From Burkholderiales bacterium (GTDB lineage Bacteria; Pseudomonadota; Gammaproteobacteria; Burkholderiales; SG8-39), in NCBI GenBank assembly GCA_036374055.1, contig DASUUN010000078.1, positions 1 through 39,328 on the forward strand: DNA of 39,328 nucleotides, written 5' to 3'. The translations under genes and the position numbers were made by a program. Below, one piece after another: positions 15,909 through 36,971 of this stretch. Below the pieces are notes generated by a model. That model was not told the DNA's origin. It saw only the letters and a program-made list of their open reading frames with translations, and did not search any database. Each line of letters begins with the position of its first letter. The first letter of the stretch is position 1.

Positions 15909-15924
15909 CGCAAGCCCCGTTCCC
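15909..15924 (-). promoter_or_regulatory. sigma-54-type -24/-12 promoter GGGAACGGGGCTTGCG for the crystallin/EF-hand gene
   Basis: GG-N10-GC spacing with a TTGC -12 element. The predicted TSS is near 15898, giving a ~27-nt leader that contains the AGGAGG RBS. Confidence 0.5.
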
Positions 15925-15973
15925 GCGATGACCGCGCGCGGCCGGGCCGGAAAATGCGCAATCCATACATCGG

Positions 15974-15996
15974 CCCGCTGTAACGCGTTCAGCGGG
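15974..15996 (-). terminator. hairpin CCCGCTG-N9-CAGCGGG downstream of gene 16004..16486
   Basis: 7-bp stem, extendable through the palindromic AACGCGTT loop, 8 nt after the stop. No U-tract. Confidence 0.35.
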
Positions 15997-16003
15997 AGAA
16001 ACC

Positions 16004-16486
16004 TCAACGCTTCTGGCTGGTGCGCAGGTCCGGCGGCAGCTGCACCATCGCCTGCTGGGTGTCGAACAGCGCCTGGTTCGCCTGCTGCATGGCTTCGTTG
16101 CGCCGCGGTCCGGCAGGCTGCTTCGCCATCGCCTGCACTGCATCGCGCAGGCGCTGCGCCGCCTCCTGCAGTCGCTCCATCGACTTCGTGTAATTGGGCT
16201 CGGTGCCCGCCCCCATGCGCAGCTCCGGCGGCAGGTCGATCATGGCGCGCTGCGTCTCCACGATGGCTTCGCGGGCTTCGTCTGCTGCGGCATTGCGCCG
16301 CTCACCGGCGGGCTGCTGCGCCATCGCCTGCACCGCCTCACGCAGCTTCTGCGCCGCCTGCTGCAGGCGTACCATCGACTCGCCGTAGTTGGTGGGCGCA
16401 GTTGCGCCGCTGCTTTGCGCGGATGCCGCTCCTGCGCCGCCCAGGAAAGCAGCCGCCACCACGCTAACCAAGAATTTGCGATCCAT
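16004..16486 (-). CDS. periplasmic all-helical protein with two ~58-aa tandem repeats (unknown family)
   Basis: GAGGAGG RBS and signal peptide MDRKFLVSVVAAAFLGGAGAASA. The repeats are NYGESMVRLQQAAQKLREAVQAMAQQPAG...LPPELR and NYTKSMERLQEAAQRLRDAVQAMAKQPAG...LPPDLR. Confidence 0.7.
   Translation of the reverse strand: MDRKFLVSVVAAAFLGGAGAASAQSSGATAPTNYGESMVRLQQAAQKLREAVQAMAQQPAGERRNAAADEAREAIVETQRAMIDLPPELRMGAGTEPNYTKSMERLQEAAQRLRDAVQAMAKQPAGPRRNEAMQQANQALFDTQQAMVQLPPDLRTSQKR
16025..16390 (-). repeat. in-frame tandem duplication (2 x ~174 nt, period 192 nt) inside gene 16004..16486
   Basis: Repeat units at about 16217-16390 and 16025-16198 encode clearly related peptide units. Confidence 0.7.
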
Positions 16487-16516
16487 AGGACCTCCTCGTG
16501 TAAATGGCGCCTGCCG

Positions 16517-16532
16517 TGCAAAGGCCGTTCCG
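16517..16532 (-). promoter_or_regulatory. sigma-54-type promoter CGGAACGGCCTTTGCA for gene 16486(-)
   Basis: GG-N10-GC spacing with a perfect TTGCA -12 element. The predicted TSS is near 16506, giving a 20-nt leader with GAGGAGG. Confidence 0.55.
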
Positions 16533-16547
16533 GGCACGGCCGTTGCA
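16532..16547 (+). promoter_or_regulatory. sigma-54-type promoter GGGCACGGCCGTTGCA for the PRC-barrel operon
   Basis: Matches GGCACG-N4-TTGCA. Its -24 element shares G16532 with the divergent promoter. GTG 16559 lies exactly 13 nt after the -12 C. Confidence 0.65.
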
Positions 16548-16558
16548 CCGGGGACGGC

Positions 16559-17773
16559 GTGCAGCCCGTGAACAACTTTCTCTTTGCATCTTTTCGCGCC
16601 GGCGCGCTTATCGGGACGCTGCTGCTGGCGTGCGGCGCGCAGGCGGCGCCGGTAAGCGCAGGCGCGCTGCTGGGTGCCCGCGTGGCCGACGCTGAAGGCG
16701 CGCAGCTCGGGACGATTCACGACCTTGCAGTGGACGTCGCTGCCGGTTACGTGCGCTATGCGATCGTCGAAAAAGCCGAGACCAGCCGTAACCAGCGCGA
16801 AGTGCGCGCCGCACCGATCACCGCGCTGCGGCCCGGGCTTGCGCGCGGCCAGCTGGTGCTGGAGTCGCGCACTCAGGTTCCGCCGGGCAATGCCGGCGGC
16901 TACCTCATGCGGGCCAAAGCGATCCTCGGCAGGCCGATCGATCATCCGACCGGCGCCGATTACGGAACCATCCGCGACGTCTTCTTCGAGCTGGAAAGCG
17001 GGCGCGTGCTGCACGCCGAGGTTTCCCTGGAGGCGGCAGCGAACGGCGTAAAGCGCAAGGTGCCATTCGATGCGCTGCGTTTTCCGCCGGCCCAGCCCAA
17101 CGCCATCCTGACGCTCGGGTCCGCCACCCTGCCGGCAAGCCAGCTGATCGGCATGGAGGTGCGCAACCGGGATGCCGGCACCAAAGGCCGCATCGACGAG
17201 CTGGTGGTGGACTTGCATAACAGCCGCGTGCACTACGTCGTGCTCGACATGGAGCACCGGTTGATCACCGAGCCCCTCGAGCGACTATCGTTTACGCCGG
17301 GCAGGCAATACGCCGTATTGCCGAACGCGACCCGCGGCATCGCAGAGCCGCGCGCCGGAATGACGCTGGCACGCGCGAGCGAGCTGATCGGCTGGGAGTT
17401 CGAGAACGAGCCCGGCGTCGACTTGGGCGTCATCAGCGATCTTTCCATCGACCCGCAAACCGGCAGGGTTTCGCACGCGCTCGTGCGGCTGCACGAGGCG
17501 CCGGGCCGTATGCAGCGGCTCGAGCTCAGCCGATTTTCGATGTCGCCGTGGCGCGAGAACCTGGTGCTCGCCGAGCCCTCCGCCGCCGCCGGCGCCACCA
17601 CACCCGCCGGCGGCGTCAATCTCTTCGAGCGGCTCGATCGCGACGGCAATGGTTTTATCGAGGATTCCGAGCTCGATAGCGGTATCGTCGGCCGCAGAAA
17701 CTGGATCGCCGTCGACCTCGATCGCGATGACCGGATCAGTCGGGACGAGTTCACCGCCATGCGCACGCAATGA
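16559..17773 (+). CDS. secreted protein with four PRC-barrel domains and a C-terminal EF-hand pair
   Basis: Signal peptide FRAGALIGTLLLACGAQA. Four units of type LLGARVADAEGAQLGTIHDLAVDVAAGYVRYAIV. EF loops DRDGNGFIEDSE and DLDRDDRISRDE. GTG 16559 chosen, with GTG 16568 as the alternative. Confidence 0.75.
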   Translation: MQPVNNFLFASFRAGALIGTLLLACGAQAAPVSAGALLGARVADAEGAQLGTIHDLAVDVAAGYVRYAIVEKAETSRNQREVRAAPITALRPGLARGQLVLESRTQVPPGNAGGYLMRAKAILGRPIDHPTGADYGTIRDVFFELESGRVLHAEVSLEAAANGVKRKVPFDALRFPPAQPNAILTLGSATLPASQLIGMEVRNRDAGTKGRIDELVVDLHNSRVHYVVLDMEHRLITEPLERLSFTPGRQYAVLPNATRGIAEPRAGMTLARASELIGWEFENEPGVDLGVISDLSIDPQTGRVSHALVRLHEAPGRMQRLELSRFSMSPWRENLVLAEPSAAAGATTPAGGVNLFERLDRDGNGFIEDSELDSGIVGRRNWIAVDLDRDDRISRDEFTAMRTQ

Positions 17774-18321
17774 AGCTGATCCTCGTGCTCCTGGCGGGTG
17801 CCCTGCTCGCTCCCGCCGCGCCCTTGCACGCCGACAACAAGGCGCAGGTACGCGCAACGGAGCTTTTCGGCAGCCGGCTCATAGACAAGGGTGGCGAGGC
17901 GCTCGGCGAAATCGGCGACCTGGTGTTCGACGCGCGCAACGGGGCGCTGCGCTCGGTGGTGGTCGACGGCGTTGCTTTGCCGGTGAGCCGGCTGCTGCCC
18001 GAGGCGGGCGGCCGGCGCTACATCCTGACGGAGCCCGACGACACCCGCCCGACCGCCTTTGCCGAGCCCCGCTGGCCTTCGATGCGCGCAAGCCGCCTGG
18101 TCAGCCATGAGGTAGTCGACCGCCTGCACCGCGATTTCGGCGAGATTCGGGACGTCCTGGTGGATCTCGACCGACGCCGGGTGGGCGGAGTGATCATCGA
18201 TCGCAGAGACGACTGGCAGGCCGGACAGGCGCTGGTCACCGTCCCTGTCGAGGCGCTGTCGCTGCCGCGCGATCTGGGCGACAAGGTGGCGCTCAACTAC
18301 TCCCGCGAGCGCCTCGAATAG
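17770..18321 (+). CDS. secreted PRC-barrel protein (2 barrels)
   Basis: ATGA start/stop overlap with the upstream gene. Signal peptide MKLILVLLAGALLAPAAPLHA. Barrel units LFGSRLIDKGGEALGEIGDLVFDARNGALRSVVV and LVSHEVVDRLHRDFGEIRDVLVDLDRRRVGGVII. Confidence 0.75.
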   Translation: MKLILVLLAGALLAPAAPLHADNKAQVRATELFGSRLIDKGGEALGEIGDLVFDARNGALRSVVVDGVALPVSRLLPEAGGRRYILTEPDDTRPTAFAEPRWPSMRASRLVSHEVVDRLHRDFGEIRDVLVDLDRRRVGGVIIDRRDDWQAGQALVTVPVEALSLPRDLGDKVALNYSRERLE

Positions 18322-18322
18322 C

Positions 18323-18338
18323 GGGCCCGCCGATTGCA
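18323..18338 (+). promoter_or_regulatory. sigma-54-like element GGGCCCGCCGATTGCA upstream of DegQ-2 (internal promoter candidate)
   Basis: GG-N10-GC spacing with a perfect TTGCA -12 element; the -24 lacks the A of GGCAC. The predicted TSS is near 18349, 26 nt before ATG 18375. Confidence 0.4.
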
Positions 18339-18374
18339 TCGAGCTTCTCCGTCCCGATCCCCAAAGGCCCCGCC

Positions 18375-19811
18375 ATGAAAGTCCTCGCCTTCGTTCTAGC
18401 GGCCGTGCTGGCCGCGCCCGCCGCCGCCCAGGCTCAATCCCCGTCACAGGGCGCCACCGCGCCAACCCGGGAGGCCAACCTTCCGGATTTCACCGCGCTC
18501 GTGAAAAAGCAGGGACCGGCGGTCGTCAACGTAATCACTACACGCGCCGCTGCCCAAGGCGGGCCGGCGGGGCTGTCGCCCGATGATCCGTTCTACGAGT
18601 TCTTCCGCCGGTTCATGCCCGAAATGCCGGAAGGCGGGCCGCCGGGGCAGGGCGAAGGGCCGGGCGGCCAGGGCATCGGCTCGGGGTTCATCATCAGCCC
18701 GGACGGCTACATCCTCACCAACGCGCACGTCGTGGCCGGTTCGAAGGAAGTGACGGTGCGCATGGCCGACGCCAAGCGCGAGTTCAAGGCGCAAGTGGTG
18801 GGCACGGACGAGCGCACCGACGTGGCGCTGCTCAAGGTGGATCAGGACAACCTGCCGGTGGTGAAGCTCGGCAAGTCCAGCACGCTGGAGCCTGGCCAAT
18901 GGGTCGCGGCCATCGGCTCGCCGTTCGGATTCGCTAACACCATCACGGCCGGCATCGTCAGCGCCACCGAGCGCGCGCTGCCCGCGGAGACCTACCTGCC
19001 GTTCATCCAGACCGACGTGGCCGTGAATCCCGGCAACTCCGGAGGGCCGCTGCTCAACCTCGACGGCGAAGTGGTCGGCATCAACTCCATGATCTACAGC
19101 CGCACCGGCGGCTACATGGGCGTGTCCTTCGCCATCCCCATCGAAGAGGCGCTCGATGTCTCCAAGCAGCTGCGCGAGCACGGCAAGGTGACGCGCGGCC
19201 GCCTGGGCATCGGCATCCAGCCGGTCACCAAGGAGCTGGCGCAGTCCTTCAAGCTGGATTCCGCCAATGGCGTGGTGGTGGTGCAGGTCGAGCCGGGCAG
19301 CCCGGCGGAAAAGGCCGGCCTGCAAGTCGGCGACGTGATTCTCAGCTACAACGGCAAGACGATCGAAGAAGGCAACATGCTGCCGCGCCTGGTGGGCAAC
19401 ACCAAGCCCGGCCAGCAGGCGAAGCTCGAGATCTGGCGCAAAGGCGAACGCCAGACCGTGACCACGACGGTCGGCGAGCTCCAGCCACGGGCGGAACAAG
19501 CGGCGGCCGGCAAGGCACCCTCGGACGACAAGCCCAGCAAGCTCGGCCTTTCCGTGCGCGAGCTCGCGCCGGACGAGCGCAAGAAGCTCGGGGTCGAGTT
19601 CGGCGTGGTCGTCACCGACATCGCCCAGGGCGCCGCCGCGGCGCGCACGCCGATCCGGCGCGGCGACGTCATCGTGGCGGTCAACCAGGCGCGCTTCAAG
19701 AGCATCGAGGAGTTCAACAAGCTGATCGAGGCGCAGAAGAAAGGCGAGACCGTGGCGCTGCTCGTGCGTCGTGGCGAGGGTGCCATCTATGTCCCCATGG
19801 AAGTGGGGTAG
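18375..19811 (+). CDS. DegQ/MucD-family periplasmic serine endoprotease (HtrA), second copy
   Basis: Signal peptide MKVLAFVLAAVLAAPAAAQA. Catalytic motifs TNAHVV, DVALLKV and GNSGGPL. Two PDZ segments. By eye roughly 60% identical to the 13732 copy across the protease core. Confidence 0.9.
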   Translation: MKVLAFVLAAVLAAPAAAQAQSPSQGATAPTREANLPDFTALVKKQGPAVVNVITTRAAAQGGPAGLSPDDPFYEFFRRFMPEMPEGGPPGQGEGPGGQGIGSGFIISPDGYILTNAHVVAGSKEVTVRMADAKREFKAQVVGTDERTDVALLKVDQDNLPVVKLGKSSTLEPGQWVAAIGSPFGFANTITAGIVSATERALPAETYLPFIQTDVAVNPGNSGGPLLNLDGEVVGINSMIYSRTGGYMGVSFAIPIEEALDVSKQLREHGKVTRGRLGIGIQPVTKELAQSFKLDSANGVVVVQVEPGSPAEKAGLQVGDVILSYNGKTIEEGNMLPRLVGNTKPGQQAKLEIWRKGERQTVTTTVGELQPRAEQAAAGKAPSDDKPSKLGLSVRELAPDERKKLGVEFGVVVTDIAQGAAAARTPIRRGDVIVAVNQARFKSIEEFNKLIEAQKKGETVALLVRRGEGAIYVPMEVG

Positions 19812-20415
19812 CGTGCTGGCGGCGCTCCTCGCGCCGCCCATCGCGCTCGCCGCCGGGTGGATCCGGATGCCGGCGAGCGAGCTGCTCGGCAAGCCGGTGA
19901 TCGACATGCAAGGCGACCGGCTCGGCCGGGTACAGGACCTCGTGGTTGACGTGCGCAATTCGCGGGTGAGCTACGCGATCGTAGGCTTCAACGGCTGGGG
20001 GACGTTGGGCGAAGAGCTGTTCCCCGTCCCGCTGAAATCGCTGGCGCCCGAGCCGGGCGGCTCGCGCGTGACGCTGCAGGTGGCTCCACGCACGCTGCGC
20101 GATGGCGCCTCGATCGACGCGCAAAGCGAGCCGCGGCTGCCGGCCGATGCGCCCCTCAAGCAACACGTACGCGCGAGCGAGCTCGTTGGCCGCCGCGTCA
20201 GCGACCGCACCGGCACGCATGCCGGCGAGATCGAGGAGGCGGTGATCGACATGAACAGCGGGCTCGTGCTTTTCCTCCTGTTCGACTACGACGAGGCCTG
20301 GGGGCTCGATCAGCCGGCGCTGCGCATGGCGCCGCAGGCCTTCAGCTTCCCGGCCGATGGCGGCCCTGCCGTCGTCAACGTGGCGCGCGAGCGCCTTGAA
20401 GACCCCGGTCGCTAG
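19789..20415 (+). CDS. secreted PRC-barrel protein (2 barrels)
   Basis: ATG 19789 overlaps the DegQ-2 3' end by 23 nt. Signal-like MSPWKWGSVLAALLAPPIALAAG. Barrel units LLGKPVIDMQGDRLGRVQDLVVDVRNSRVSYAIV and LVGRRVSDRTGTHAGEIEEAVIDMNSGLVLFLLF. Confidence 0.7.
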   Translation: MSPWKWGSVLAALLAPPIALAAGWIRMPASELLGKPVIDMQGDRLGRVQDLVVDVRNSRVSYAIVGFNGWGTLGEELFPVPLKSLAPEPGGSRVTLQVAPRTLRDGASIDAQSEPRLPADAPLKQHVRASELVGRRVSDRTGTHAGEIEEAVIDMNSGLVLFLLFDYDEAWGLDQPALRMAPQAFSFPADGGPAVVNVARERLEDPGR

Positions 20416-20577
20416 CGTCGCCGCCGCTCGTATCGCCGCCGGCGAGCGGCGGCATGCCACGAAGCGGGCGTAGAACACCGCGATGAGCTGAAAGCCGAAC
20501 AGCGCCTGGATGCCCGGCAGCACCATGCGGCACTCTTCCAGGAGATGACTGGTGGCGGCATCGATCGCCGACCGCAC
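20416..20577 (-). pseudogene. possible 5' remnant of a DUF6328-type membrane protein gene
   Basis: The translation SHLLEECRMVLPGIQALFGFQLIAVFYARF resembles the conserved first TM region of DUF6328 proteins as I recall it. The rest of the family is missing, and the frame runs on as antisense of the PRC gene. Confidence 0.3.
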
Positions 20578-20613
20578 CGCAACTCCCGTGCCGGCCGCGG
20601 CCGCGGCTCCAAG

Positions 20614-20629
20614 GGGAACGCAGCTTGCG
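20614..20629 (+). promoter_or_regulatory. sigma-54-type element GGGAACGCAGCTTGCG upstream of small ORF 20655
   Basis: GG-N10-GC spacing with TTGC. The predicted TSS is near 20640, followed by GGAGGA (20643-20648) and GTG 20655. Confidence 0.45.
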
Positions 20630-20654
20630 GTGTGCCGTATTTGGAGGAAGCGTC

Positions 20655-20882
20655 GTGCTGCGATTGCGCTCATTAGGACCCGGCGATCTTTTCATCGTCC
20701 CGGAGGGCGAGCAGGGATGCTGGGCGAGCTTTTTCTCCGGCAAGGAATACCGCCCGCCCGGGGTGCAGTTCACCGGGCGCACGTATATCGAGTCCTTCGA
20801 GCCGAAGGCTCAGGCGGTGGTGGAGCCGCCGCTGCAGCAGGTGGCGGCGCGCGGTTCCTCAAGCAGGCCGAAAGCCTGGTGA
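20655..20882 (+). CDS. small hypothetical protein (75 aa) with cupin-like strand motif
   Basis: GTG start 6 nt after GGAGGA. LGPGDLFIVPEGEQGCW resembles the C-terminal strands of small cupins. GC3 is only moderately high. Confidence 0.4.
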   Translation: MLRLRSLGPGDLFIVPEGEQGCWASFFSGKEYRPPGVQFTGRTYIESFEPKAQAVVEPPLQQVAARGSSSRPKAW

Positions 20883-20952
20883 ACCGGCGATCGGCTTCCA
20901 TCACGAGGTGCGGTCCTTCAAGCTGTTCTGCGCAGAAAAGGAGTAGCGAATC

Positions 20953-22755
20953 ATGGCGAAAACCACGGTGGGAGATTTTCTGCTGGCGCGCCTCGCGCAA
21001 TGGGGCGTGCGGCGCGTCTACGGTTATCCGGGCGACGGCATCAACGGCATCATGGGCGCCTTCGGGCGCGCCGAGGGAACGCCCGCGGGCAAGCTGCAGT
21101 TCGTGCAGGCGCGCCACGAGGAACTCGCCGCCTTCATGGCCTGCGCCCACGCCAAGTTCACGGGCGAGGTGGGGGTGTGCCTTGCGACCTCGGGCCCGGG
21201 CGCGATCCACCTGCTGAACGGGCTGTACGACGCGAAGCTCGACCACCAGCCGGTGCTCGCCATCATCGGCCAGCAGAAGCGCGCCGCCATGGGCGGCGAC
21301 TACCAGCAGGAAGTCGACCTGATGACGCTCTTCAAGGACGTGGCGCACGAGTACGTGCACACGGCGATGAACCCGGCGCAGGTGCGCCACCTGGTCGACC
21401 GCGCGATGCGCATCGCCATGGACCGGCGCACCGTCACCTGCCTCATCTTCCCGAACGACGTGCAGGAGCTCGACGCGGTCAAGGTCCCGCCACACAAGCA
21501 CGGCACGGTCCACACCGGCATCGGCTACACCGCGGCCGCGGGCGCGCCCAACGCCCACGAGCTGAAGCACGCCGCCGAAGTGCTCAATGCCGGCAAGCGC
21601 GTGGCGATCCTCGTGGGCGCCGGGGCGCTGCACGCGACCGATGAGGTCATGGAAGTCGCGGAGCTCCTCGGCGCCGGCGTGGCCAAGGCCCTGCTCGGCA
21701 AGGCCGCGCTGCCCGACGAGCTGCCGTACGTGACCGGCTCCATCGGCCTGCTCGGCACTACGCCGAGCTGGGAAATGATGACCGGTTGCGACACGCTGCT
21801 CATGGTGGGCTCGGGATTCCCGTATTCCGAATTCCTGCCGGAGGAAGGCCAGGCGCGCGGCGTGCAGATCGACATCGACGGGCGCATGCTCAGCCTACGC
21901 TACCCGATGGACGTGAATCTCGTCGGCGACAGCAAGGAGACGCTGCGCGCGCTGATGCCTTTCCTCATGAAAAAGACCGACCGGCAGTGGCGCAGCGGGA
22001 TCGAGGCGAGCGTGGCCCGCTGGTGGCAGGTGCTCGAAGCGCGCGCCATGAACGAAGCAAAGCCGATCAACCCCCAGCGCGTATTCTGGGAGCTCTCGCC
22101 GCGGCTGCCGGACAACTGCATCCTTACCTGTGATTCCGGCTCCGCCGCCAACTGGTATGCGCGCGACCTGAAGATCCGGCGCGGCATGATGGCATCGCTT
22201 TCGGGCGGCCTGGCCACCATGGGCCCCGCGGTGCCCTACGCCATCGCGGCGAAGTACGCGCATCCCGAGCGCCCGGTGATCGCGCTGCTCGGCGACGGCG
22301 CCATGCAGATGAACGGCATGAACGGCCTCATCACCATCGCCAAGATCTGGAAGGAATGGCGCGATCCGCGCCTCACCGTGATGATGCTGAACAACGGCGA
22401 CCTGAACCAGGTGACCTGGGAGCAGCGCGCGATGCAGGGCGACCCGAAGTTCGAAACCTCGCAGGTGGTACCGGATTTCCCGTATGCGGAATACGCGCGC
22501 CTGCTCGGCCTGGGCGGCATCCGGGTCGAGCGGCCGGAGGATATCGGGCCCGCCTGGGAGCGCGCGCTCGCCGCCGACAAGCCCACGGTGCTGGAGATGG
22601 TCACGGACCCCAACGTGCCGCCGCTGCCGCCGCACATCACTTTCGAGCAGGCCAAGGCCTACCTTTCGGCGCTCATCAAGCGCGACCCGGATTCGGTGCG
22701 CATGGTGACCGCCTCGGCCAAGGAATGGTGGGACGGCGTCAGGCCGCGAAGGTGA
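20953..22755 (+). CDS. thiamine pyrophosphate-dependent enzyme, pyruvate oxidase/pyruvate dehydrogenase (quinone)-like
   Basis: TPP N-domain GYPGDGINGIM...ATSGPGAIHLLNGLYDA and TPP-binding motif LLGDGAMQMNG...NNGDLN. 600 aa. Confidence 0.85.
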   Translation: MAKTTVGDFLLARLAQWGVRRVYGYPGDGINGIMGAFGRAEGTPAGKLQFVQARHEELAAFMACAHAKFTGEVGVCLATSGPGAIHLLNGLYDAKLDHQPVLAIIGQQKRAAMGGDYQQEVDLMTLFKDVAHEYVHTAMNPAQVRHLVDRAMRIAMDRRTVTCLIFPNDVQELDAVKVPPHKHGTVHTGIGYTAAAGAPNAHELKHAAEVLNAGKRVAILVGAGALHATDEVMEVAELLGAGVAKALLGKAALPDELPYVTGSIGLLGTTPSWEMMTGCDTLLMVGSGFPYSEFLPEEGQARGVQIDIDGRMLSLRYPMDVNLVGDSKETLRALMPFLMKKTDRQWRSGIEASVARWWQVLEARAMNEAKPINPQRVFWELSPRLPDNCILTCDSGSAANWYARDLKIRRGMMASLSGGLATMGPAVPYAIAAKYAHPERPVIALLGDGAMQMNGMNGLITIAKIWKEWRDPRLTVMMLNNGDLNQVTWEQRAMQGDPKFETSQVVPDFPYAEYARLLGLGGIRVERPEDIGPAWERALAADKPTVLEMVTDPNVPPLPPHITFEQAKAYLSALIKRDPDSVRMVTASAKEWWDGVRPRR

Positions 22756-22770
22756 GCCAATAAGCGGATG

Positions 22771-22803
22771 GCCGCCCGAGGGCTGCAGAGCCCTCAGGGC
22801 GGC
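22771..22803. terminator. GC-rich hairpin between convergent genes
   Basis: GCCGCCCGAGGGCT-GCAG-AGCCCTCAGGGCGGC with one bulge, starting 16 nt after the TPP enzyme stop. It includes the stop codon of the minus-strand gene. Confidence 0.5.
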
Positions 22804-23216: not shown

Positions 23217-23226
23217 CACCAGGCGT

Positions 23227-23242
23227 TGCACGCGTTGTGCCC
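23227..23242 (-). promoter_or_regulatory. sigma-54-type promoter GGGCACAACGCGTGCA for the pseudo-receiver gene
   Basis: GGCAC -24 and GTGCA -12 elements. GTG 23216 lies 12 nt after the -12 C. Confidence 0.5.
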
Positions 23243-23256
23243 GGGCGGACGGCGCA

Positions 23257-23272
23257 TGGCACGCGCTTTGCG
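23257..23272 (+). promoter_or_regulatory. sigma-54 promoter TGGCACGCGCTTTGCG for the EF-hand/PG-binding gene
   Basis: Full consensus TGGCAC-N5-TTGC. The predicted TSS is near 23283, giving a 23-nt leader with AAGGAGG 6 nt before ATG 23306. Confidence 0.75.
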
Positions 23273-23305
23273 AGTTCTTCCGCAAATCCATCAAGGAGGT
23301 CTTAT

Positions 23306-27881: not shown

Positions 27882-27897
27882 GGGCACGTTCGCTGCT
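27882..27897 (+). promoter_or_regulatory. sigma-54-type promoter GGGCACGTTCGCTGCT for PRC-barrel/EF-hand gene 27937
   Basis: GGCACG-N4-CTGCT. The predicted TSS is near 27908, giving a 29-nt leader with an AAAGGAGA RBS. Confidence 0.65.
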
Positions 27898-29122: not shown

Positions 29123-29155
29123 GGAAACGGGCTTTCGGGCCCGTTTCCCTTTTTT
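29123..29155 (+). terminator. rho-independent terminator
   Basis: GGAAACGGGC-TTTCGG-GCCCGTTTCC is a 10-bp stem followed by CTTTTTT, starting 20 nt after the stop at 29103. Confidence 0.85.
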
Positions 29156-29311: not shown

Positions 29312-29327
29312 GGGCACGCCGGCTGCT
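29312..29327 (+). promoter_or_regulatory. sigma-54-type promoter GGGCACGCCGGCTGCT for the PPC/DUF296 gene
   Basis: Same GGGCACG-N4-CTGCT form as at 27882 and 35432. ATG 29341 lies 15 nt after the -12 C, a near-leaderless placement. Confidence 0.6.
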
Positions 29328-29787: not shown

Positions 29788-29791
29788 GTGC

Positions 29792-30190
29792 CTAGCCGCG
29801 TTCGCACAGGATCTTGAGCGAGGCCACGCGCCCTGGAAAGCCGAGCTCGCGCAGGTCTTGTACCTCGCGCTGTGGCTCCAGGGAGAAGACCTCTTTGCGG
29901 AAGCCGGGCTCGGCATACGCGACGAGCCTCGCCTCGGGGCCGACCACCACGCTTCGGGCCTGGCGGAAGAACTGCTCCTCGTTCAGCGTCCCGATCAATC
30001 CCGGACCGGCGATCGAGTTGATGTAGAGCGCGCCGGCCAGCCGCCCCATCGGGCGCTCGAAGCCAGGCTCGCTGAAAAAGCCCACCCAGCAGCCCTCGCC
30101 GTAAATCGGGTCGAGCTGCGGCGGGTTGATGTCCGCCGCGCCCGCGGACAAGACGGTCGAAAGCGCAGCGACAAGCGCGAGCCTCACCAT
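29792..30190 (-). CDS. secreted beta/gamma-crystallin-like protein (paralogue of the 15230 domain, degenerate Greek-key motifs)
   Basis: Signal peptide MVRLALVAALSTVLSAGAA. CWVGFFSEPGFERP...VVGPEARLVAYAEPGFRKEVF...SLKILC aligns with CWARLYDSTNFEGN...AVGPKARLTVYDNENYEQ...SVKVAC. The ATG overlaps the upstream stop (ATGGTGA). Confidence 0.6.
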   Translation of the reverse strand: MVRLALVAALSTVLSAGAADINPPQLDPIYGEGCWVGFFSEPGFERPMGRLAGALYINSIAGPGLIGTLNEEQFFRQARSVVVGPEARLVAYAEPGFRKEVFSLEPQREVQDLRELGFPGRVASLKILCERG

Positions 30191-30789
30191 TGCCTGTCCC
30201 ACTCGTGATCGTGCAGGCGCCGGCGCTCGTCCGACGGCTCGCGGCGCACGAATCCCTGCCGCTCCGATACATCGGCCGGCGGATGCTCCACCTGCCAGCG
30301 GGTCAACGGCGGAAAGCGCCCGTGGGCCAGCACCGCGGGCGGCATGTTGCGCCTGCCCCGGTCGGTCTCGACCACCACCCGCTCCACGCGGCCGGACCCC
30401 GGCTCGAACTCGATGTCCGCAATCGTGCCGATGCGGCCGTCGCCGGGATGGGTGACCGGCTGGCCGATGAGCCGGCCGGCGCGGCGAAACTTCGCATCTT
30501 CGCGCGACTTGTCATGGGCTACGGCATTGGTGAGATCCATGTTGAGCCGCATGTGCTCGTCCAAGGCGCGCACCGGCAGCGTATAGAACCTGTCGTGGGC
30601 ATCGAGGATCACGTACACCACGCGTCCGGCGCGCACATCGACGATCAGCTCCTCGACCGCGCCGATCTTCTCGCCGCGCCGGTTCTCTACGGTGTCACCC
30701 AACACGCGGTTAACCGCTGCCGCGCGCGCCTCCAGCACCGGCAGGCTTGCGACCGCCACGAACACGGCGATCATTGCGTTCTTGAGCAT
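30184..30789 (-). CDS. secreted PRC-barrel protein (2 barrels)
   Basis: Signal peptide MLKNAMIAVFVAVASLPVLEARA. Barrel units VLGDTVENRRGEKIGAVEELIVDVRAGRVVYVIL and LIGQPVTHPGDGRIGTIADIEFEPGSGRVERVVV. Confidence 0.75.
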   Translation of the reverse strand: MLKNAMIAVFVAVASLPVLEARAAAVNRVLGDTVENRRGEKIGAVEELIVDVRAGRVVYVILDAHDRFYTLPVRALDEHMRLNMDLTNAVAHDKSREDAKFRRAGRLIGQPVTHPGDGRIGTIADIEFEPGSGRVERVVVETDRGRRNMPPAVLAHGRFPPLTRWQVEHPPADVSERQGFVRREPSDERRRLHDHEWDRQW

Positions 30790-30800
30790 GTGATTCCTGT

Positions 30801-30816
30801 CGCACGAATCGTGCCG
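30801..30816 (-). promoter_or_regulatory. sigma-54-type promoter CGGCACGATTCGTGCG for the PRC-barrel/crystallin operon
   Basis: GGCACG -24 and GTGCG -12 elements. ATG 30789 lies exactly 13 nt after the -12 C. Confidence 0.6.
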
Positions 30817-30831
30817 GGCGCGGCGCTTGCA
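30816..30831 (+). promoter_or_regulatory. sigma-54-like promoter GGGCGCGGCGCTTGCA for ORF 30843
   Basis: GG-N10-GC spacing with a perfect TTGCA. It shares G30816 with the divergent promoter. GTG 30843 lies exactly 13 nt after the -12 C. Confidence 0.5.
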
Positions 30832-30842
30832 GGTCGTAGACG

Positions 30843-31430
30843 GTGCGCGTCCTTGTCGCCATTGCAGTGCACGCCTTCGCCCGTTCCTGGCGACCGGAGG
30901 GCGGAATCGCGCTTGGAAAGACCATCCTGCGCATCGGCGCAGCTGCGGCGCTGCTCTTTTCCAGCCTGGCCATTGCGCAGGCGGGCAAGGACTTGATCCG
31001 CGCCTCGGGCGAGGTGCTCGGCACGTTGCAGATCCGCACAAGCAGCGGGACCACGCGCGAACTGGTCAAGCTGCAGCGAGCCGACGGCGGCCGCGTGGTG
31101 GTCGATCTGGGCAAGGCCGCCGCGCGCGTGCAGCGGGGGGAACGCGTATTTGTCCAGGGGCATCCGGGGAGGATCAGCGGCAAGCCGGTGATTTTCGCCC
31201 GCTATGTCGCCGAGCTGCCGGAAGTGGATAGGCGCGGCGAGCCCGGTGCCTCGACCGGCACGAGCGGCGCGCCGCTCGGCCAATTGAAGCGCGACGATTT
31301 CGGCTACTACCACGACGGCTTGGAATGGACCTCGGCGGATCCCGCGTTCGAATCCTTCTATAGCGACGCCGAGAACGCCTGGGATGCCTACGGCACGACG
31401 TCGACCCGGCCGCCGCCTCGCACGAGGTAG
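30843..31430 (+). CDS. hypothetical secreted protein
   Basis: High GC3 and an internal signal-like segment KTILRIGAAAALLFSSLAIAQA. The start is uncertain: GTG 30843 fits the promoter geometry, and GTG 30867 is the alternative. Confidence 0.5.
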   Translation: MRVLVAIAVHAFARSWRPEGGIALGKTILRIGAAAALLFSSLAIAQAGKDLIRASGEVLGTLQIRTSSGTTRELVKLQRADGGRVVVDLGKAAARVQRGERVFVQGHPGRISGKPVIFARYVAELPEVDRRGEPGASTGTSGAPLGQLKRDDFGYYHDGLEWTSADPAFESFYSDAENAWDAYGTTSTRPPPRTR

Positions 31431-35166: not shown

Positions 35167-35431
35167 TACTGCTTTCTTGCGAGCGCCCGCGCAAGCTCCT
35201 TCTTGCTCATCCCCGAGCGTCCGGCGTGTCGGGAAGCTTCTGTCGGCCAGGCATGAAGTTCTCCTTTCACGCCTTTTGCAAACAAAGTTCGTGCCTGAAC
35301 CCAGGCCGTTCTTTGCATTCGGGCGTCGCTCTGCGCGCGGCACGCGTCCCGGGAGGGAAATCGGTGCAACGGCCCGCTGTAAGAAAGTCGCGCGCCTTCG
35401 GCGGCAGGCGCGCTCTCGCTGCGCAGCAGCC

Positions 35432-35447
35432 GGGCACGCTGTCTGCT
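35432..35447 (+). promoter_or_regulatory. sigma-54-type promoter GGGCACGCTGTCTGCT for PRC-barrel gene 35491
   Basis: GGCACG-N4-CTGCT. The predicted TSS is near 35458, giving a 33-nt leader with an AAAGGAA RBS. Confidence 0.65.
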
Positions 35448-35490
35448 CTCAGGAGAGTCTGCGGTTTACCCTCGTTAAAAGGAACTCATT

Positions 35491-36225
35491 ATGAAATTCG
35501 CCAAGCCATTCCTCATCAGCTTCTCGCTGCTCGCCTTTGCCGGCGCCGCCCAGGCACAGAGCGGTCAGCAGCAAGGCGCGCGGCAACAGCTAGGCGTGCA
35601 GCAGCAATCGCAGCAAAAGGGCGAGATGCGCACGAGCGAGCTGATCGGCCAGAAGGTGAAGGACAGCCAGGGCAAGGAGCTCGGCGAGATCAAGGACGTG
35701 GTGCTCGACTTGCAGGGCGGCAAGGTGCACGCCGCGGTGCTCGAGTTCGGCGGCTTCATGGGCGTCGGCGAGAAGAACTTCGCCTTCCCCCTCCGCCAGC
35801 TCGAGCCCGGCGGCGAGCAGGGGCAGCTGACGATGAACATCGACAAGCAGAAGCTCGAGAACGCCGAGGGCTTCGCGCAGGGCCAGTGGCCGGCGATGGA
35901 TGACGAGTACTGGGGCCGCATCGGCGGCCAGGCGAGCACCGGCGAGACCCGGCCGCAGGGCGAGCCGCAGCGCAAGGTGCTGGTGCGGGCGAGCGAGCTC
36001 GACGGCAAGACGGTGCAGGACAACAGCGGCCAGGACGTCGGCGAGATCCGCCACGTGATGGTCGACATGAAGAGCGGCCAGCTGCGCGACATCGTCGTCG
36101 ACGTGAAAGACGCCGGCCAGGCACGCGTGCAGGCGAGCTCGCTCTCCATAGGTACCGGCGACAAGCTGGTGCTCGACATGGACGCCGGGCAGCTCAAGCG
36201 CCAGGGCGGCGGCAACCGTCAGTAA
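35491..36225 (+). CDS. secreted PRC-barrel protein (2 barrels), paralogue of 27937 without EF-hands
   Basis: Signal peptide MKFAKPFLISFSLLAFAGAAQA. Barrel units LIGQKVKDSQGKELGEIKDVVLDLQGGKVHAAVLEFGGFMGVGEKNFAF and LDGKTVQDNSGQDVGEIRHVMVDMKSGQLRDIVV. Confidence 0.8.
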   Translation: MKFAKPFLISFSLLAFAGAAQAQSGQQQGARQQLGVQQQSQQKGEMRTSELIGQKVKDSQGKELGEIKDVVLDLQGGKVHAAVLEFGGFMGVGEKNFAFPLRQLEPGGEQGQLTMNIDKQKLENAEGFAQGQWPAMDDEYWGRIGGQASTGETRPQGEPQRKVLVRASELDGKTVQDNSGQDVGEIRHVMVDMKSGQLRDIVVDVKDAGQARVQASSLSIGTGDKLVLDMDAGQLKRQGGGNRQ

Positions 36226-36237
36226 ATCCGCGCGCCG

Positions 36238-36831
36238 CTAGGCGAACGCCCGTGCGAGCCGCCGGCTCGGGTGCTCGAGCTCGGCGGCGCGCGCGCGGCT
36301 GAAGTACCAGACGCAGGCGATGGCCACCGCGATGTCGACGGCAAGCGGAGCCGCGAACGTCAGCTGCGCCATGGTGAGCAGGACTATCACGGCAAGCAGC
36401 CCCTTGCCGCCGCCGAAGACCAGCCAGCAGGCGAGGCCGTAAGCCGTCGCCGCCGCGATGGCGAGCGGCGGCGCCGCGTGGAGCCCGAGGCCGAGGCGCA
36501 GCTCGCCGAAGGGCGCGAAGGGCAGCTGCTGCGCGTGCAGGGCGAGATCGAGCAAGAGGTGCAGCACGATGGCGAGCGCAGCGGCCGCCCCCAGCGCGCG
36601 CCGGCGCAGCAGCCGCCCGACGAGCAGCCACGCCACGGCGGCGGCGAGCAGCAGGGAAACCACCGAATGGGAGTAGGGCATGCCCATGCCCGCACCTTCG
36701 ATGCCGGCGAAGCCCAGGCCCACCCAGGCGATCGCCGGCAGCTCGGCCGCAAGGAGAATCCATCCCATGCGTGCCTCCGGATAGCGCCGCTTCACGAGCA
36801 GCGCGGTTGCCGCGTGGCTTATGGCCAGCAT
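36238..36831 (-). CDS. integral membrane protein, possibly YdjM/DUF457-type metal-dependent hydrolase
   Basis: Five to six hydrophobic helices. His-containing motifs SHAATALL, YSHSVV and HLLLD resemble the family. Confidence 0.5.
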   Translation of the reverse strand: MLAISHAATALLVKRRYPEARMGWILLAAELPAIAWVGLGFAGIEGAGMGMPYSHSVVSLLLAAAVAWLLVGRLLRRRALGAAAALAIVLHLLLDLALHAQQLPFAPFGELRLGLGLHAAPPLAIAAATAYGLACWLVFGGGKGLLAVIVLLTMAQLTFAAPLAVDIAVAIACVWYFSRARAAELEHPSRRLARAFA

Positions 36832-36873
36832 TCTTCTCTCCCTTCCCCGCGCGTGCAGTCTGCAGGAGACCGG

Positions 36874-36890
36874 CTTAAGGACGACTTAAC
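36874..36890 (-). promoter_or_regulatory. PmrA/QseB-type box CTTAAG-GACGA-CTTAAC in a divergent intergenic region
   Basis: On the minus strand the order is box, 11 nt, CAGACT, then a 25-nt leader with GGGAGAG before ATG 36831. Confidence 0.6.
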
Positions 36891-36955
36891 GCCCGGCGCG
36901 ACGCAACACCGTGCTTTTGCAAGGATTCCTCCCGATGGCCGGTGAAACGCCGGCA

Positions 36956-36971
36956 GGGCCTGAACTTTGCA
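36956..36971 (+). promoter_or_regulatory. sigma-54-like promoter GGGCCTGAACTTTGCA for the chalcone-isomerase-like gene
   Basis: GG-N10-GC spacing with a perfect TTGCA. ATG 36983 lies exactly 13 nt after the -12 C. Confidence 0.45.

What the first reader, a model, noticed from the sequence alone, without database searches (positions are those of the whole stretch)
15909..36971. Thirteen -24/-12 (sigma-54-type) promoters wire the PRC-barrel, EF-hand, crystallin and DegQ genes into one regulon, with no activator in the window
Elements matching TGGCACG-N4-TTGCW (GG-N10-GC) lie in intergenic DNA, correctly oriented, upstream of these starts. 15871(-) GGGAACGGGGCTTGCG; 16486(-) CGGAACGGCCTTTGCA; 16559(+) GGGCACGGCCGTTGCA; 18375(+) GGGCCCGCCGATTGCA; 20655(+) GGGAACGCAGCTTGCG; 23216(-) GGGCACAACGCGTGCA; 23306(+) TGGCACGCGCTTTGCG; 27937(+) GGGCACGTTCGCTGCT; 29341(+) GGGCACGCCGGCTGCT; 30789(-) CGGCACGATTCGTGCG; 30843(+) GGGCGCGGCGCTTGCA; 35491(+) GGGCACGCTGTCTGCT; 36983(+) GGGCCTGAACTTTGCA. 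From base composition I estimate fewer than one chance hit to the stricter core GGCAC-N5-NTGC on both strands of 39 kb. Seven sites carry that core, and all seven are promoter-positioned. Most products are signal-peptide proteins of unknown function. No NtrC-type AAA+ enhancer-binding protein and no rpoN is encoded here, so the activator and its signal are unknown. This density of sigma-54 promoters on a block of uncharacterised secreted proteins is unusual.
Basis: partly seen in the sequence, partly recalled or inferred. Interest (0 to 1): 0.85.

Follow-up and report, generated by a model that had tools for sequence, protein, structure and literature searches.

The report
Cluster of sigma-54-type promoters
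A 21-kb block of mostly secreted stress and envelope proteins in an uncultured soil Burkholderiales bacterium is preceded, gene after gene, by a conserved promoter signature of the alternative sigma factor sigma-54, so the block looks like a previously undescribed sigma-54 stress island whose activator lies elsewhere in the genome.

Summary
All 13 listed 16-mers exist. As a class they are real, non-random, promoter-like -24/-12 elements. Only the canonical GG-N10-GC spacing is enriched in intergenic DNA. Their density is 15 times higher in intergenic than in coding DNA in the window, and 9-30 times higher in seven diverged syntenic loci. In tandem intergenic regions 16 of 17 sites point at the downstream gene. 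The element recurs upstream of orthologous PRC-barrel, DegQ, EF-hand and unknown secreted genes in relatives, sometimes in fully canonical TGGCACG-N4-CTGCT form. The distance to the start codon is bimodal: 10-13 nt, or 25-45 nt with a Shine-Dalgarno sequence, and none at 14-24 nt. That is the pattern expected if transcription starts about 11 nt after TTGCW. ECF-type (GGAAC-N16-17-CGTT) and chance readings are rejected. It occurs 9 times, not 7. Site 36956 is weak, and 23227 and 30816 have no comparative support. One strong site, 20578(-), was missed. T(-26) is usually replaced by C or G. No enhancer-binding protein or rpoN is in the window, only 1 of about 105 related loci carries a candidate, and no shared upstream activator site was found. 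Sigma-54 dependence and "one regulon" remain untested. Verdict: a new member of a known kind, of moderate interest.

The parts
15909..15924 (-). -24/-12 element GGGAACGGGGCTTGCG, 37 nt before the start of the crystallin+EF-hand gene 15230-15871(-)
   Evidence: Ranks 4 of 78.6k window positions with a PWM trained only on other loci. The L092 orthologue has a site, the L091 orthologue does not. Scores low (5.6 bits) with the literature PWM. A Shine-Dalgarno sequence follows.
16517..16532 (-). -24/-12 element CGGAACGGCCTTTGCA, 30 nt before the unknown secreted-protein gene 16004-16486(-)
   Evidence: Ranks 1 in the window. Orthologues in L092 (gap 31) and L091 (gap 38) carry the element.
16532..16547 (+). 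-24/-12 element GGGCACGGCCGTTGCA, back-to-back with the previous site (1-nt overlap), 11 nt before the GTG of the PRC x3+EF-hand gene 16559-17773(+); probable operon with the PRC gene 17770-18321
   Evidence: Ranks 2 with the lineage PWM and 1 with the literature PWM. The same back-to-back pair occurs in L091 at 8735(-)/8750(+). Belongs to the short-gap class.
18323..18338 (+). -24/-12 element GGGCCCGCCGATTGCA, 36 nt before the DegQ/HtrA gene 18375-19811(+); probable operon with the PRC gene 19771-20415
   Evidence: Orthologous DegQ genes in L091 (gap 37), L081 and L085 (gap 34), L090 (gap 10) and L097 all carry an element.
20578..20593 (-).
   Evidence: Ranks 3 in the window. It is the only wrongly oriented hit in a tandem intergenic region. 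The minus-strand reading frame downstream looks like the start of a membrane protein, then runs antisense into the PRC gene.
20614..20629 (+). -24/-12 element GGGAACGCAGCTTGCG, 25 nt before the 75-aa ORF 20655-20882(+), which is followed by the TPP enzyme gene 20953-22755
   Evidence: Ranks 10. The TPP-enzyme gene has a -24/-12 element directly upstream in the distant loci L002, L003, L007, L024, L039 and L055.
23227..23242 (-). -24/-12-like element GGGCACAACGCGTGCA, 10 nt before the GTG of the unknown gene 22794-23216(-)
   Evidence: Ranks 13. No orthologue was available, so there is no comparative support. Short-gap class.
23257..23272 (+). -24/-12 element TGGCACGCGCTTTGCG, 33 nt before the EF-hand+PG-binding gene 23306-23893(+); possibly co-transcribed with the MR_MLE gene 23930-25042 and the FAD/FeS oxidase gene 25045-27834
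   Evidence: The best match to the textbook consensus (one mismatch). The L091 orthologue has CGGCATGGCCCTTGCA at gap 25.
27882..27897 (+). -24/-12 element GGGCACGTTCGCTGCT, 39 nt before the PRC+EF-hand gene 27937-29103(+)
   Evidence: The element is conserved upstream of PRC homologues in L081, L085, L086, L087 and L092 and in L095-L102.
29312..29327 (+). -24/-12 element GGGCACGCCGGCTGCT, 13 nt before the ATG of the PCC/DUF296 gene 29341-29787(+)
   Evidence: Scores 12.1 bits with the literature PWM. A strong terminator at 29123-29148 lies just upstream, so the gene needs its own promoter. The L099 orthologue has a strong site 12 nt before its ATG. Orthologues in L081, L085 and L086 lack a strong site.
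30801..30816 (-). -24/-12-like element CGGCACGATTCGTGCG, 11 nt before the ATG of the PRC gene 30184-30789(-); probable operon with the crystallin-like gene 29792-30202
   Evidence: Ranks 20. The L086 orthologue has CGGGCATGAATCCTGCGA at the same 11-nt gap. Scores poorly with the literature PWM.
30816..30831 (+). -24/-12-like element GGGCGCGGCGCTTGCA, upstream of the unknown secreted-protein gene (likely start TTG 30912, end 31430)
   Evidence: Ranks 11 with the lineage PWM but scores only 6.7 bits with the literature PWM. No orthologue was found. The start codon was revised from the sequence.
35432..35447 (+). -24/-12 element GGGCACGCTGTCTGCT, 43 nt before the PRC gene 35491-36225(+)
   Evidence: In alignment A1 the element is the only conserved block upstream of nine PRC homologues, apart from the SD and ATG. 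Seven related loci and eight further metagenome loci carry it.
36956..36971 (+). Weak candidate GGGCCTGAACTTTGCA, 11 nt before the chalcone-isomerase-like gene 36983-37474(+)
   Evidence: Ranks 49 with the lineage PWM. The L092 orthologue lacks it. The same intergenic region holds the other conserved motif, TTAAG-N6-CTTAA, at 36875.

Best explanation
The elements are genuine sigma-54 (RpoN)-class -24/-12 promoters. In this uncultured Burkholiales-like lineage the consensus is c(C/G)GG(C/A)A(C/T)G-N4-TTGC(A/T). About a dozen of them head about a dozen transcription units between 15.9 and 36 kb. These units encode mostly signal-peptide proteins: PRC-barrel, EF-hand, beta/gamma-crystallin, DegQ, a PG-binding protein and unknowns. 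They also include a widely conserved cassette of TPP enzyme, enolase-superfamily enzyme, FAD/FeS oxidase and PCC protein. Inferred mechanism: RNA polymerase carrying sigma-54 sits on each element as a closed complex. It fires only when an AAA+ enhancer-binding protein, encoded elsewhere in the genome, is switched on, plausibly by an envelope, cation or desiccation stress. Transcription is inferred to start about 11 nt after TTGCW. That gives two kinds of mRNA: leaders of about 15-35 nt carrying a Shine-Dalgarno sequence, and leaderless or nearly leaderless transcripts. Shown here: the motif, its exact spacing, its intergenic and orientation bias, its conservation across diverged relatives, and its fixed geometry relative to start codons. 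Inferred: sigma-54 binding, dependence on an activator, the start sites, the inducing signal, and co-regulation of the units.
For: Only the spacer that gives GG-N10-GC is enriched in intergenic DNA: window 11 intergenic against 4 coding, other loci 29 against 16; every other spacer from 2 to 11 gives 0-4 intergenic hits. PWM hits are 15 times denser in intergenic DNA in the window (Fisher p = 2.6e-8; shuffled intergenic DNA gives 1.2 hits against 11 observed) and 9-30 times denser in seven related loci. A PWM built from 52 validated or curated promoters (PMC12316311 S2 table) puts its top five window hits all in intergenic DNA, at claimed sites, with none in coding DNA at 12 bits or more. In tandem intergenic regions 16 sites are correctly oriented and 1 is not; convergent regions hold none. 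Unbiased dyad enrichment recovers ACG-N5-TGC, CAC-N6-TGC, GGG-N9-TGC and ACG-N4-TTG. Information content is confined to the 16-17 nt element. The element is conserved upstream of orthologues that share 45-83% protein identity, including the canonical CTGGCACGCTTTCTGCT in L095-97 and TGGCAC/TGGCAT forms upstream of the TPP operon in other proteobacterial lineages. The distance to the start codon is bimodal: 10 of 38 sites at 10-13 nt, none at 0-9 or 14-24 nt, and 21 at 25-45 nt (p = 3e-6 to 1e-2 against a positional null). No sigma-70-like consensus promoter occurs in 15.8-35.6 kb.
Against: There is no experimental evidence and no start-site data, because the window is a metagenome contig. T at -26, present in 49 of 52 reference promoters, is replaced by C or G in most sites here. 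The sites therefore score 5-14 bits, against a reference median of 17. No shared upstream activator sequence was found in the 200 nt upstream of 43 sites. No enhancer-binding protein lies in the window, and only one candidate turned up in about 105 related loci. Several divergent pairs are back-to-back, with their -24 boxes touching (16517/16532, 30801/30816). This leaves no intergenic room for an enhancer and probably no room for two holoenzymes at once. Sigma-54 promoters that give leaderless mRNAs are not something I could find described. Whether this genome has rpoN cannot be checked.
Confidence: 0.75

Rival explanations
1. The 16-mer is the operator of a sequence-specific transcription factor that is not a sigma factor. 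It sits next to ordinary promoters, and its resemblance to the sigma-54 consensus is coincidental.
For: T(-26) is missing, so scores against reference promoters are low. No enhancer and no enhancer-binding protein are nearby. The back-to-back pairs form near-palindromes, for example the 31-nt TGCAAAGGCCGTTCCGGGCACGGCCGTTGCA at 16517-16547. An OmpR-type two-component system is encoded in the window.
Against: The unit is asymmetric, and most sites are single. Orientation is strictly towards the gene (16 to 1). The conserved bases and the exact spacing are those of sigma-54. Relatives carry fully canonical TGGCACG-N4-CTGCT/TTGC forms at the same positions. The spacing between paired sites varies (15, 30 and 36 nt in the window; 15, 26 and 28 nt in relatives), which a dimer operator would not tolerate. 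The gap distribution with a void at 14-24 nt fits a core promoter element. OmpR-family proteins bind direct repeats, which this is not (own knowledge).
Confidence: 0.12
2. The GGAAC-containing sites are -35 boxes of an ECF sigma factor: an EcfG-like general stress sigma or an RpoE/AlgU-like envelope stress sigma. Both classes are known to drive PRC-barrel and DegP-type genes in other bacteria.
For: Several sites read GGAAC (15909, 16517, 20614, and many in L081 and L085). [quoted passage not shown] The gene content resembles a general stress regulon.
Against: Nothing is conserved where a -10 box would lie; information content is about 0.1 bit or less at positions 17-32. GGAAC-N16-17-CGTT occurs once, and the RpoE-type pattern once, in all intergenic DNA of eight loci, against 44 hits for the sigma-54 pattern. 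GGAAC and GGCAC interchange between orthologous promoters. With GGAAC at -35, the 25-45 nt gaps would leave leaders too short to hold the Shine-Dalgarno sequences seen.
Confidence: 0.03
3. The sites do bind sigma-54 holoenzyme, but many are not productive promoters. Examples are the back-to-back partners and the short-gap sites. These could act as roadblocks, insulators or competitors rather than driving the adjacent gene.
For: Site 20578(-) has no intact gene downstream. Paired sites with touching -24 boxes probably cannot both be occupied. Six window sites end 10-13 nt before the start codon, and some have an SD-like sequence inside that gap (30801: AGGA; L099 3602: GGAGG). Non-productive and intragenic sigma-54 sites are known in enterobacteria (PMC3844500 and PMC4551910, titles and abstracts).
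Against: The short-gap class is conserved at the same distance in orthologues (30801 with L086; 29312 with L099) and is strongly over-represented. That pattern argues for a functional link to the start codon.
Confidence: 0.05
4. The matches are chance products of 69% G+C composition.
For: The loose consensus shows no overall enrichment in the window (75 against 74). The strict core is expected about 3.5 times.
Against: Intergenic enrichment, spacing specificity, orientation bias and cross-locus conservation all contradict it.
Confidence: 0.02

Closest known systems
Canonical sigma-54 (RpoN) -24/-12 promoters, consensus TGGCACG-N4-TTGCW (compilation of Barrios et al. 1999; 720-promoter seed set of PMC12316311)
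   Same: Invariant GG and GC exactly 10 nt apart, A at -22, C/T at -21, G at -20, TT before GC, A/T after it. Located upstream of genes and oriented towards them.
   Different: T at -26 is usually C or G. C at -23 is often A. No recognisable enhancer and no linked activator. A sizeable subclass lies 10-13 nt from the start codon, which implies leaderless mRNA.
The ZraPSR and Psp envelope stress responses of enterobacteria: sigma-54 promoters driving periplasmic or envelope protectants, with zraP and zraSR transcribed divergently from sigma-54 promoters (PMC4987338)
   Same: Sigma-54-type promoters in front of exported envelope-quality-control proteins (DegQ here), and divergent promoter pairs sharing one intergenic region.
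   Different: In Zra and Psp the activator (ZraR, PspF) is encoded next to its targets and binds between or upstream of the promoters. Here no activator is linked, the pairs leave no space for one, and the regulon is far larger and made of different protein families.
The alphaproteobacterial general stress response (PhyR-NepR-EcfG), whose regulon includes PRC-barrel and small secreted proteins (PMC6599016)
   Same: Similar cargo: PRC-barrel proteins, small exported proteins of unknown function, and in related loci BON/CBS, ferritin-like and OmpA-like proteins.
   Different: A different sigma factor class. The EcfG motif GGAAC-N16-20-(C)GTT is absent. The organism is betaproteobacterial.
Dense sigma-54 gene clusters such as the Klebsiella nif cluster, with roughly 7-8 sigma-54 promoters in about 24 kb (own knowledge, not checked here)
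   Same: Many sigma-54 promoters packed into one 20-25 kb block, nearly one per operon.
   Different: nif carries its own activator (nifA) and NifA-binding enhancers (TGT-N10-ACA). This block has neither.
The proposal that sigma-54 is a central controller of the bacterial exterior (Francke et al. 2011, PMC3162934)
   Same: The putative targets are overwhelmingly exported or envelope-associated.
   Different: PRC-barrel, EF-hand and crystallin proteins are not linked with sigma-54 or RpoN in any paper of the searched library.

Membership tests
sigma-54-dependent (-24/-12) promoter | Conserved GG and GC dinucleotides separated by exactly 10 nt | tested here: met
   Of spacers 2-11, only the one giving GG-N10-GC is enriched in intergenic DNA: 11 of 15 window hits and 29 of 45 hits in other loci are intergenic. 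GG and GC are invariant in 29 of 29 sites from other loci, with one exception at the first G.
sigma-54-dependent (-24/-12) promoter | Extended consensus TGGCACG-N4-TTGCW | tested here: inconclusive
   Positions -25 to -20 and -15 to -11 agree with the consensus. T(-26) is C or G in most sites, so the 13 claimed sites score -0.7 to 14.4 bits, against a median of 17.1 and a minimum of 7.7 for 52 reference promoters. Canonical T(-26) versions occur at orthologous positions in L095-97, L087 and L091.
sigma-54-dependent (-24/-12) promoter | Lies upstream of a gene and is oriented towards it | tested here: met
   16 of 17 sites in tandem intergenic regions are correctly oriented, and none lie in convergent regions. 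Intergenic density is 9-30 times the coding density.
sigma-54-dependent (-24/-12) promoter | Transcription starts about 12 nt downstream of the GC | not testable with these tools
   There are no transcript data. The only evidence is indirect: start codons lie either 10-13 nt after the element or at least 25 nt after it with a Shine-Dalgarno sequence, and never at 0-9 or 14-24 nt.
sigma-54-dependent (-24/-12) promoter | Transcription requires rpoN and an AAA+ enhancer-binding protein | not testable with these tools
   The window has no rpoN and no enhancer-binding protein. The rest of the genome is not available.
sigma-54-dependent (-24/-12) promoter | Enhancer (UAS) for the activator, typically 80-150 nt upstream (usual, but not obligatory) | tested here: not met
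   No dyad is significantly shared among the 200-nt upstream regions of 43 sites. Many intergenic regions are only 55-110 nt long and are occupied by a divergent partner site.
ECF sigma (EcfG or RpoE type) promoter | A GGAAC -35 box followed at 16-17 nt by a CGTT or TCnnA -10 box | tested here: not met
   One intergenic match for each pattern in eight loci, against 44 for the sigma-54 pattern. No information content at the expected -10 position.
Single regulon (one shared activator) | Common activator-binding site or demonstrated co-expression | tested here: inconclusive
   No shared upstream motif was found. Co-expression cannot be tested. The shared promoter class and the conserved clustering across loci are compatible with one activator or with several.

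The most novel reading that the evidence does not exclude
In a lineage of uncultured soil Burkholderiales, sigma-54 rather than RpoS or an ECF sigma drives a general-stress-like envelope island. The island encodes PRC-barrel, EF-hand, crystallin, DegQ, BON and DUF748 proteins. An unlinked activator acts on the promoters without a promoter-proximal enhancer, perhaps because it lacks a DNA-binding domain. About a quarter of the promoters produce leaderless mRNAs, and divergent promoter pairs abut so closely that only one of the two can be occupied at a time.
Probability: 0.2. Interest if true: 0.7.

Novelty: new member of a known kind. Interest (0 to 1): 0.55.

Why it matters
If confirmed, this gives a first regulatory handle on PRC-barrel, bacterial EF-hand and beta/gamma-crystallin secreted proteins, which are very common in soil bacteria and have no known function. 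They would be co-controlled with periplasmic proteases by an ATP-dependent, tightly switched sigma-54 system. It would also extend the idea that sigma-54 governs the cell exterior to a large stress island in uncultured Burkholderiales. Three mechanistic oddities could then be tested: promoters without a nearby enhancer, abutting divergent sigma-54 promoters, and sigma-54 promoters placed so that the mRNA would be leaderless. The promoter class itself is textbook, so the advance lies in regulon content and architecture, not in a new principle.

Tried and rejected
1. The ECF (EcfG, RpoE) reading of the GGAAC sites was rejected: there is no -10 element and the patterns are absent.

2. A palindromic dimer-operator reading of the back-to-back pairs was rejected. 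Most sites are single and asymmetric, and the spacing within pairs varies.

3. An RNA-motif reading found nothing: Rfam gives no family in the window, and the only self-complementarity is a 3-bp GCA/TGC.

4. A search for a shared enhancer in the 200 nt upstream of 43 sites gave nothing significant.

5. A search for the activator gave no Sigma54_activat domain or GAFTGA motif in the window. Among 94 loci there was one GSFTGA ORF, in L041, and none in 11 further loci.

6. An exact-protein look-up of the window's PRC+EF-hand protein found no record.

7. A metagenome scan with the single PRC protein found nothing. Repeating it with an alignment gave 12 loci.

8. One JGI contig with a very similar island could not be read because no DNA was held for it.

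9. The supplementary 'S3 matrix' of PMC12316311 turned out to hold protein motifs, not the DNA matrix. I built the reference PWM from the promoter sequences in its S2 table instead.

10. The fragment downstream of 20578(-) has no homologue in the related loci.

11. The cultured Burkholderiales among the TPP-enzyme loci (Variovorax, Ramlibacter, Duganella, Cupriavidus) showed no strong site upstream of that gene. No cultivable model was identified.

Full report
**What the window is.** The window is 69% G+C and is itself a metagenome contig of 39,328 nt. Its closest relatives are uncultured Burkholiales-type MAGs: the TPP enzyme is 86% identical to one in a Burkholderiales MAG, and homologues of the PRC protein are named Burkholderiales.

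I mapped genes by GC3 phase and ORFs and annotated them with Pfam. The left third holds:
- a PAS-GGDEF-EAL protein, an MshE/T2SSE ATPase, an MFS transporter and a periplasmic binding protein;
- a weak PRC-like gene;
- an OmpR-type response regulator with its histidine kinase, and a DegP.

- crystallin+EF-hand, 15230-15871(-);
- an unknown secreted protein, 16004-16486(-);
- PRC x3+EF-hand, 16559-17773, followed by PRC, 17770-18321;
- DegQ, 18375-19811, followed by PRC, 19771-20415;
- a 75-aa ORF followed by a TPP enzyme, 20953-22755;
- an unknown gene, 22794-23216(-);
- EF-hand+PG-binding, 23306-23893, then an enolase-superfamily gene and an FAD/FeS oxidase gene;
- PRC+EF-hand, 27937-29103;
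- PCC, 29341-29787;
- PRC, 30184-30789(-), with a crystallin-like gene, 29792-30202(-);
- an unknown secreted protein, 30912-31430;
- CAP and DUF748 on the minus strand;
- PRC, 35491-36225.

By eye, nearly all the non-enzymatic products begin with a signal peptide. No predictor was run.

**Checking the observation.** All 13 strings exist.
- The strict core GGCAC-N6-TGC occurs 9 times against 3.45 expected.
- The loose consensus with up to 3 mismatches is not enriched at all, 75 against 74.

The signal is positional. Only 6% of the window is intergenic, yet 7 of the 9 core hits lie there.

With a PWM of the textbook consensus, the window has 11 intergenic hits in 2.7 kb against 10 hits in 36.7 kb of coding DNA. 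That is a 15-fold difference in density (Fisher p = 2.6e-8). Dinucleotide-shuffled intergenic DNA gives 1.2 hits.

I also built a PWM from 52 validated or curated promoters taken from the S2 table of PMC12316311. Its five best window hits are all claimed intergenic sites, and no coding hit reaches 12 bits.

**Unbiased tests.**
- Dyad enrichment in intergenic DNA, run without any prior motif, recovers ACG-N5-TGC, CAC-N6-TGC and GGG-N9-TGC in the window, and ACG-N4-TTG in the related loci.
- I varied the spacer between GG[CA]A[CT] and TGC from 2 to 11 nt. Only the spacer that gives GG-N10-GC is enriched: 11 intergenic against 4 coding in the window, and 29 against 16 elsewhere. Every other spacer gives 0-4 intergenic hits.
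- Information content is confined to c(C/G)GG(C/A)A(C/T)G-N4-TTGC(A/T). Nothing is conserved downstream, where a -10 box would sit, or upstream.
- In tandem intergenic regions, 16 sites point at the downstream gene and 1 does not. Convergent regions hold none.

**Comparative evidence.** Homologues of the PRC protein led to syntenic islands in other contigs: L081 from a Burkholderiales MAG, plus L085, L086, L087, L090, L091 and L092. These share only 75-85% DNA identity with the window, over parts of their length.

The same element sits in their intergenic DNA upstream of orthologues:
- DegQ: gaps of 34, 34, 37 and 10 nt;
- the unknown 160-aa secreted protein: gaps of 31 and 38 nt;
- EF-hand+PG-binding: gap of 25 nt;
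- every PRC homologue used as bait.

In an alignment of nine upstream regions of PRC homologues, the only conserved block besides the SD and ATG is GGGCACG-N4-cTGC. A second, independent set of metagenome loci gave the element in 8 of the 9 cases with enough upstream DNA. These include the fully canonical CTGGCACGCTTTCTGCT at a 42-nt gap, and a strong site 12 nt before the PCC orthologue's ATG.

The TPP-enzyme operon is a cassette found across many phyla. It carries a -24/-12 element directly upstream in Rhodocyclaceae, other Betaproteobacteria, Gammaproteobacteria and a deltaproteobacterial MAG, several with TGGCAC or TGGCAT.

With a PWM trained only on the other loci, 12 of the 13 claimed sites rank within the top 23 of 78,600 window positions. 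Site 36956 ranks 49. An unlisted site at 20578(-) ranks 3.

**Geometry.** I measured the distance from the last base of the element to the start codon for 38 intergenic sites in eight loci:

| Distance to start codon | Sites | Null fraction | p |
|---|---|---|---|
| 0-9 nt | 0 | 14% | 3e-3 |
| 10-13 nt | 10 | 4% | 3e-6 |
| 14-24 nt | 0 | 11% | 1e-2 |
| 25-45 nt | 21 | 19% | 7e-7 |

The remaining 7 sites lie further away. Sites in the 25-45 nt class are followed by good Shine-Dalgarno sequences.

This is what one expects if transcription starts about 11 nt after TTGCW. A start codon is then either at the start site, giving a leaderless mRNA, or far enough downstream to leave room for a ribosome-binding site. 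Six of the ten short-gap cases come from database gene calls that are independent of my own. Two are conserved between orthologues: 30801 with L086, and 29312 with L099. This is indirect evidence for the start site, not a measurement.

**What speaks against the sigma-54 reading, or stays open.**
- T(-26) is present in 49 of 52 reference promoters but is mostly C or G here. Scores are therefore low relative to references.
- No shared enhancer motif was found.
- No enhancer-binding protein or rpoN is in the window, and only one candidate appeared in about 105 related loci.
- Four window pairs are back-to-back (16517/16532, 20578/20614, 23227/23257, 30801/30816). In two of them the -24 boxes touch, which leaves no room for an enhancer and probably none for two polymerases.
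- Site 20578(-) precedes only a gene fragment.
- Some short gaps contain SD-like sequences.
- Nothing shows that the units are co-regulated.

**Rivals.**
- ECF-type promoters are excluded by the absence of a -10 box and of the EcfG and RpoE patterns. This holds even though PRC-barrel genes are EcfG targets in an alphaproteobacterium (PMC6599016).
- A transcription-factor operator that mimics the sigma-54 consensus is hard to reconcile with the asymmetry, the orientation bias, the exact spacing, the canonical forms in relatives and the gap distribution. I cannot exclude it without experiments, and give it 0.12.
- Chance is excluded.

**Per-site verdict.**
- Strong comparative support: 16517, 18323, 23257, 27882, 35432.
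- Moderate support: 15909, 16532, 20614, 29312, 30801.
- Decent score but no comparative support: 23227, 30816.
- Weak: 36956.
- Additional sites: 20578(-), and possibly 35281(-) AGGCACGAACTTTGTT upstream of DUF748, if that gene starts at the internal MRKALL.

**Comparison with known systems.** The promoter class is the textbook sigma-54 class. The closest functional analogues are the sigma-54-dependent envelope stress systems Zra and Psp; zraP and zraSR also use divergent sigma-54 promoters (PMC4987338). The finding also fits the general proposal that sigma-54 controls the cell exterior (PMC3162934). The local promoter density, about 0.6 per kb, is comparable to a nif cluster (own knowledge).

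What is new is the cargo, the lack of a linked activator or enhancer, the lineage-specific -26 base, and the apparent leaderless subclass. No paper in the searched library links PRC-barrel proteins with sigma-54 or RpoN.

**Verdict.** I class this as a new member of a known kind, with interest 0.55.

Noticed in passing
window 11091-11104, 11632-11645, 36875-36888, 38411-38424, 38759-38772 (weaker: 38730); also L081 5194 and 18650, L085 8265, L087 3260, 3616 and 7573, L090 10469-10569 and 11979, L091 409, 2509, 3596 and 4559, L092 285, 4327 and 6485: A second conserved intergenic motif, and the strongest signal in the unbiased dyad analysis: the palindrome (c)TTAAG-N6-CTTAA(g). It almost never occurs in about 100 kb (both strands) of coding DNA. 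It lies 19-46 nt before the start codons of a different gene set: the periplasmic binding protein, the PRC-like gene 11102-11608, the OmpR-type regulator operon, the YdjM-like membrane protein, the S9/S15 hydrolase and an ion-channel-like gene. It is conserved upstream of the hydrolase orthologues in three other loci. Its 5-N6-5 layout resembles a CRP-family site. It could be the operator of a dimeric regulator or another promoter class. It is not generally found upstream of the -24/-12 sites.
   Followed up: partly
window 20953-22755, 23930-27834, 29341-29787; loci L001-L080: The genes for the TPP enzyme, the enolase-superfamily (MR_MLE) enzyme, the FAD/FeS (GlcD-CCG type) oxidase and often the PCC/DUF296 protein form a cassette. 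It is conserved across Proteobacteria, Acidobacteriota, Verrucomicrobiota, Actinomycetota and Chloroflexota. In the window it is interrupted by inserted genes: 22794-23893 and the PRC+EF-hand gene 27937-29103. Each inserted gene has its own -24/-12 element.
   Followed up: partly
window 20416-20577 (-): Downstream of the unlisted site 20578(-), the minus strand encodes VRSAIDAATSHLLEECRMVLPGIQALFGFQLIAVFYA. This looks like the N-terminus of a small membrane protein. The frame then runs antisense into the PRC gene without a stop. It is probably a truncated gene remnant that has kept its promoter. No homologue occurs in the related loci.
   Followed up: partly
window 16517-16547 and 30801-30831; L091 8735-8765: Divergent -24/-12 elements abut, with a 1-nt overlap of their upstream ends. 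At 16517-16547 this forms a 31-nt near-palindrome. The arrangement is conserved in L091. Two sigma-54 holoenzymes are unlikely to fit at once, and there is no intergenic room for an enhancer.
   Followed up: no
window 30843 versus 30912: The ORF called from GTG 30843 more likely starts at TTG 30912, which is preceded by GGAGGGAGG and followed by a clean signal peptide (MGKTILRIGAAAALLFSSLAIAQA). This moves site 30816(+) from the short-gap class to an 80-nt gap.
   Followed up: yes
window 29123-29148 (+): A strong intrinsic-terminator-like hairpin (11 pairs, followed by a T run) lies right after the PRC+EF-hand gene. It separates that gene from the PCC gene and its own -24/-12 element at 29312.
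   Followed up: no
window 11688-15150 (+): An OmpR-type response regulator, a histidine kinase and a DegP form an apparent operon directly left of the promoter-rich block. The same trio, followed by PRC genes, occurs on a JGI contig whose DNA could not be read. It cannot be the sigma-54 activator because it has no AAA+ domain, but it may belong to the same stress circuit.
   Followed up: no
window 35281-35296 (-): AGGCACGAACTTTGTT has a -12 box TTGT, as in E. coli pspA. It lies inside the 5' end of the annotated DUF748 ORF. If that gene really starts at the internal MRKALLAAAIA (about 35166), this would be a further -24/-12 candidate with a gap of about 114 nt. The L085 DUF748 orthologue has a clear element at a 63-nt gap.
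   Followed up: no
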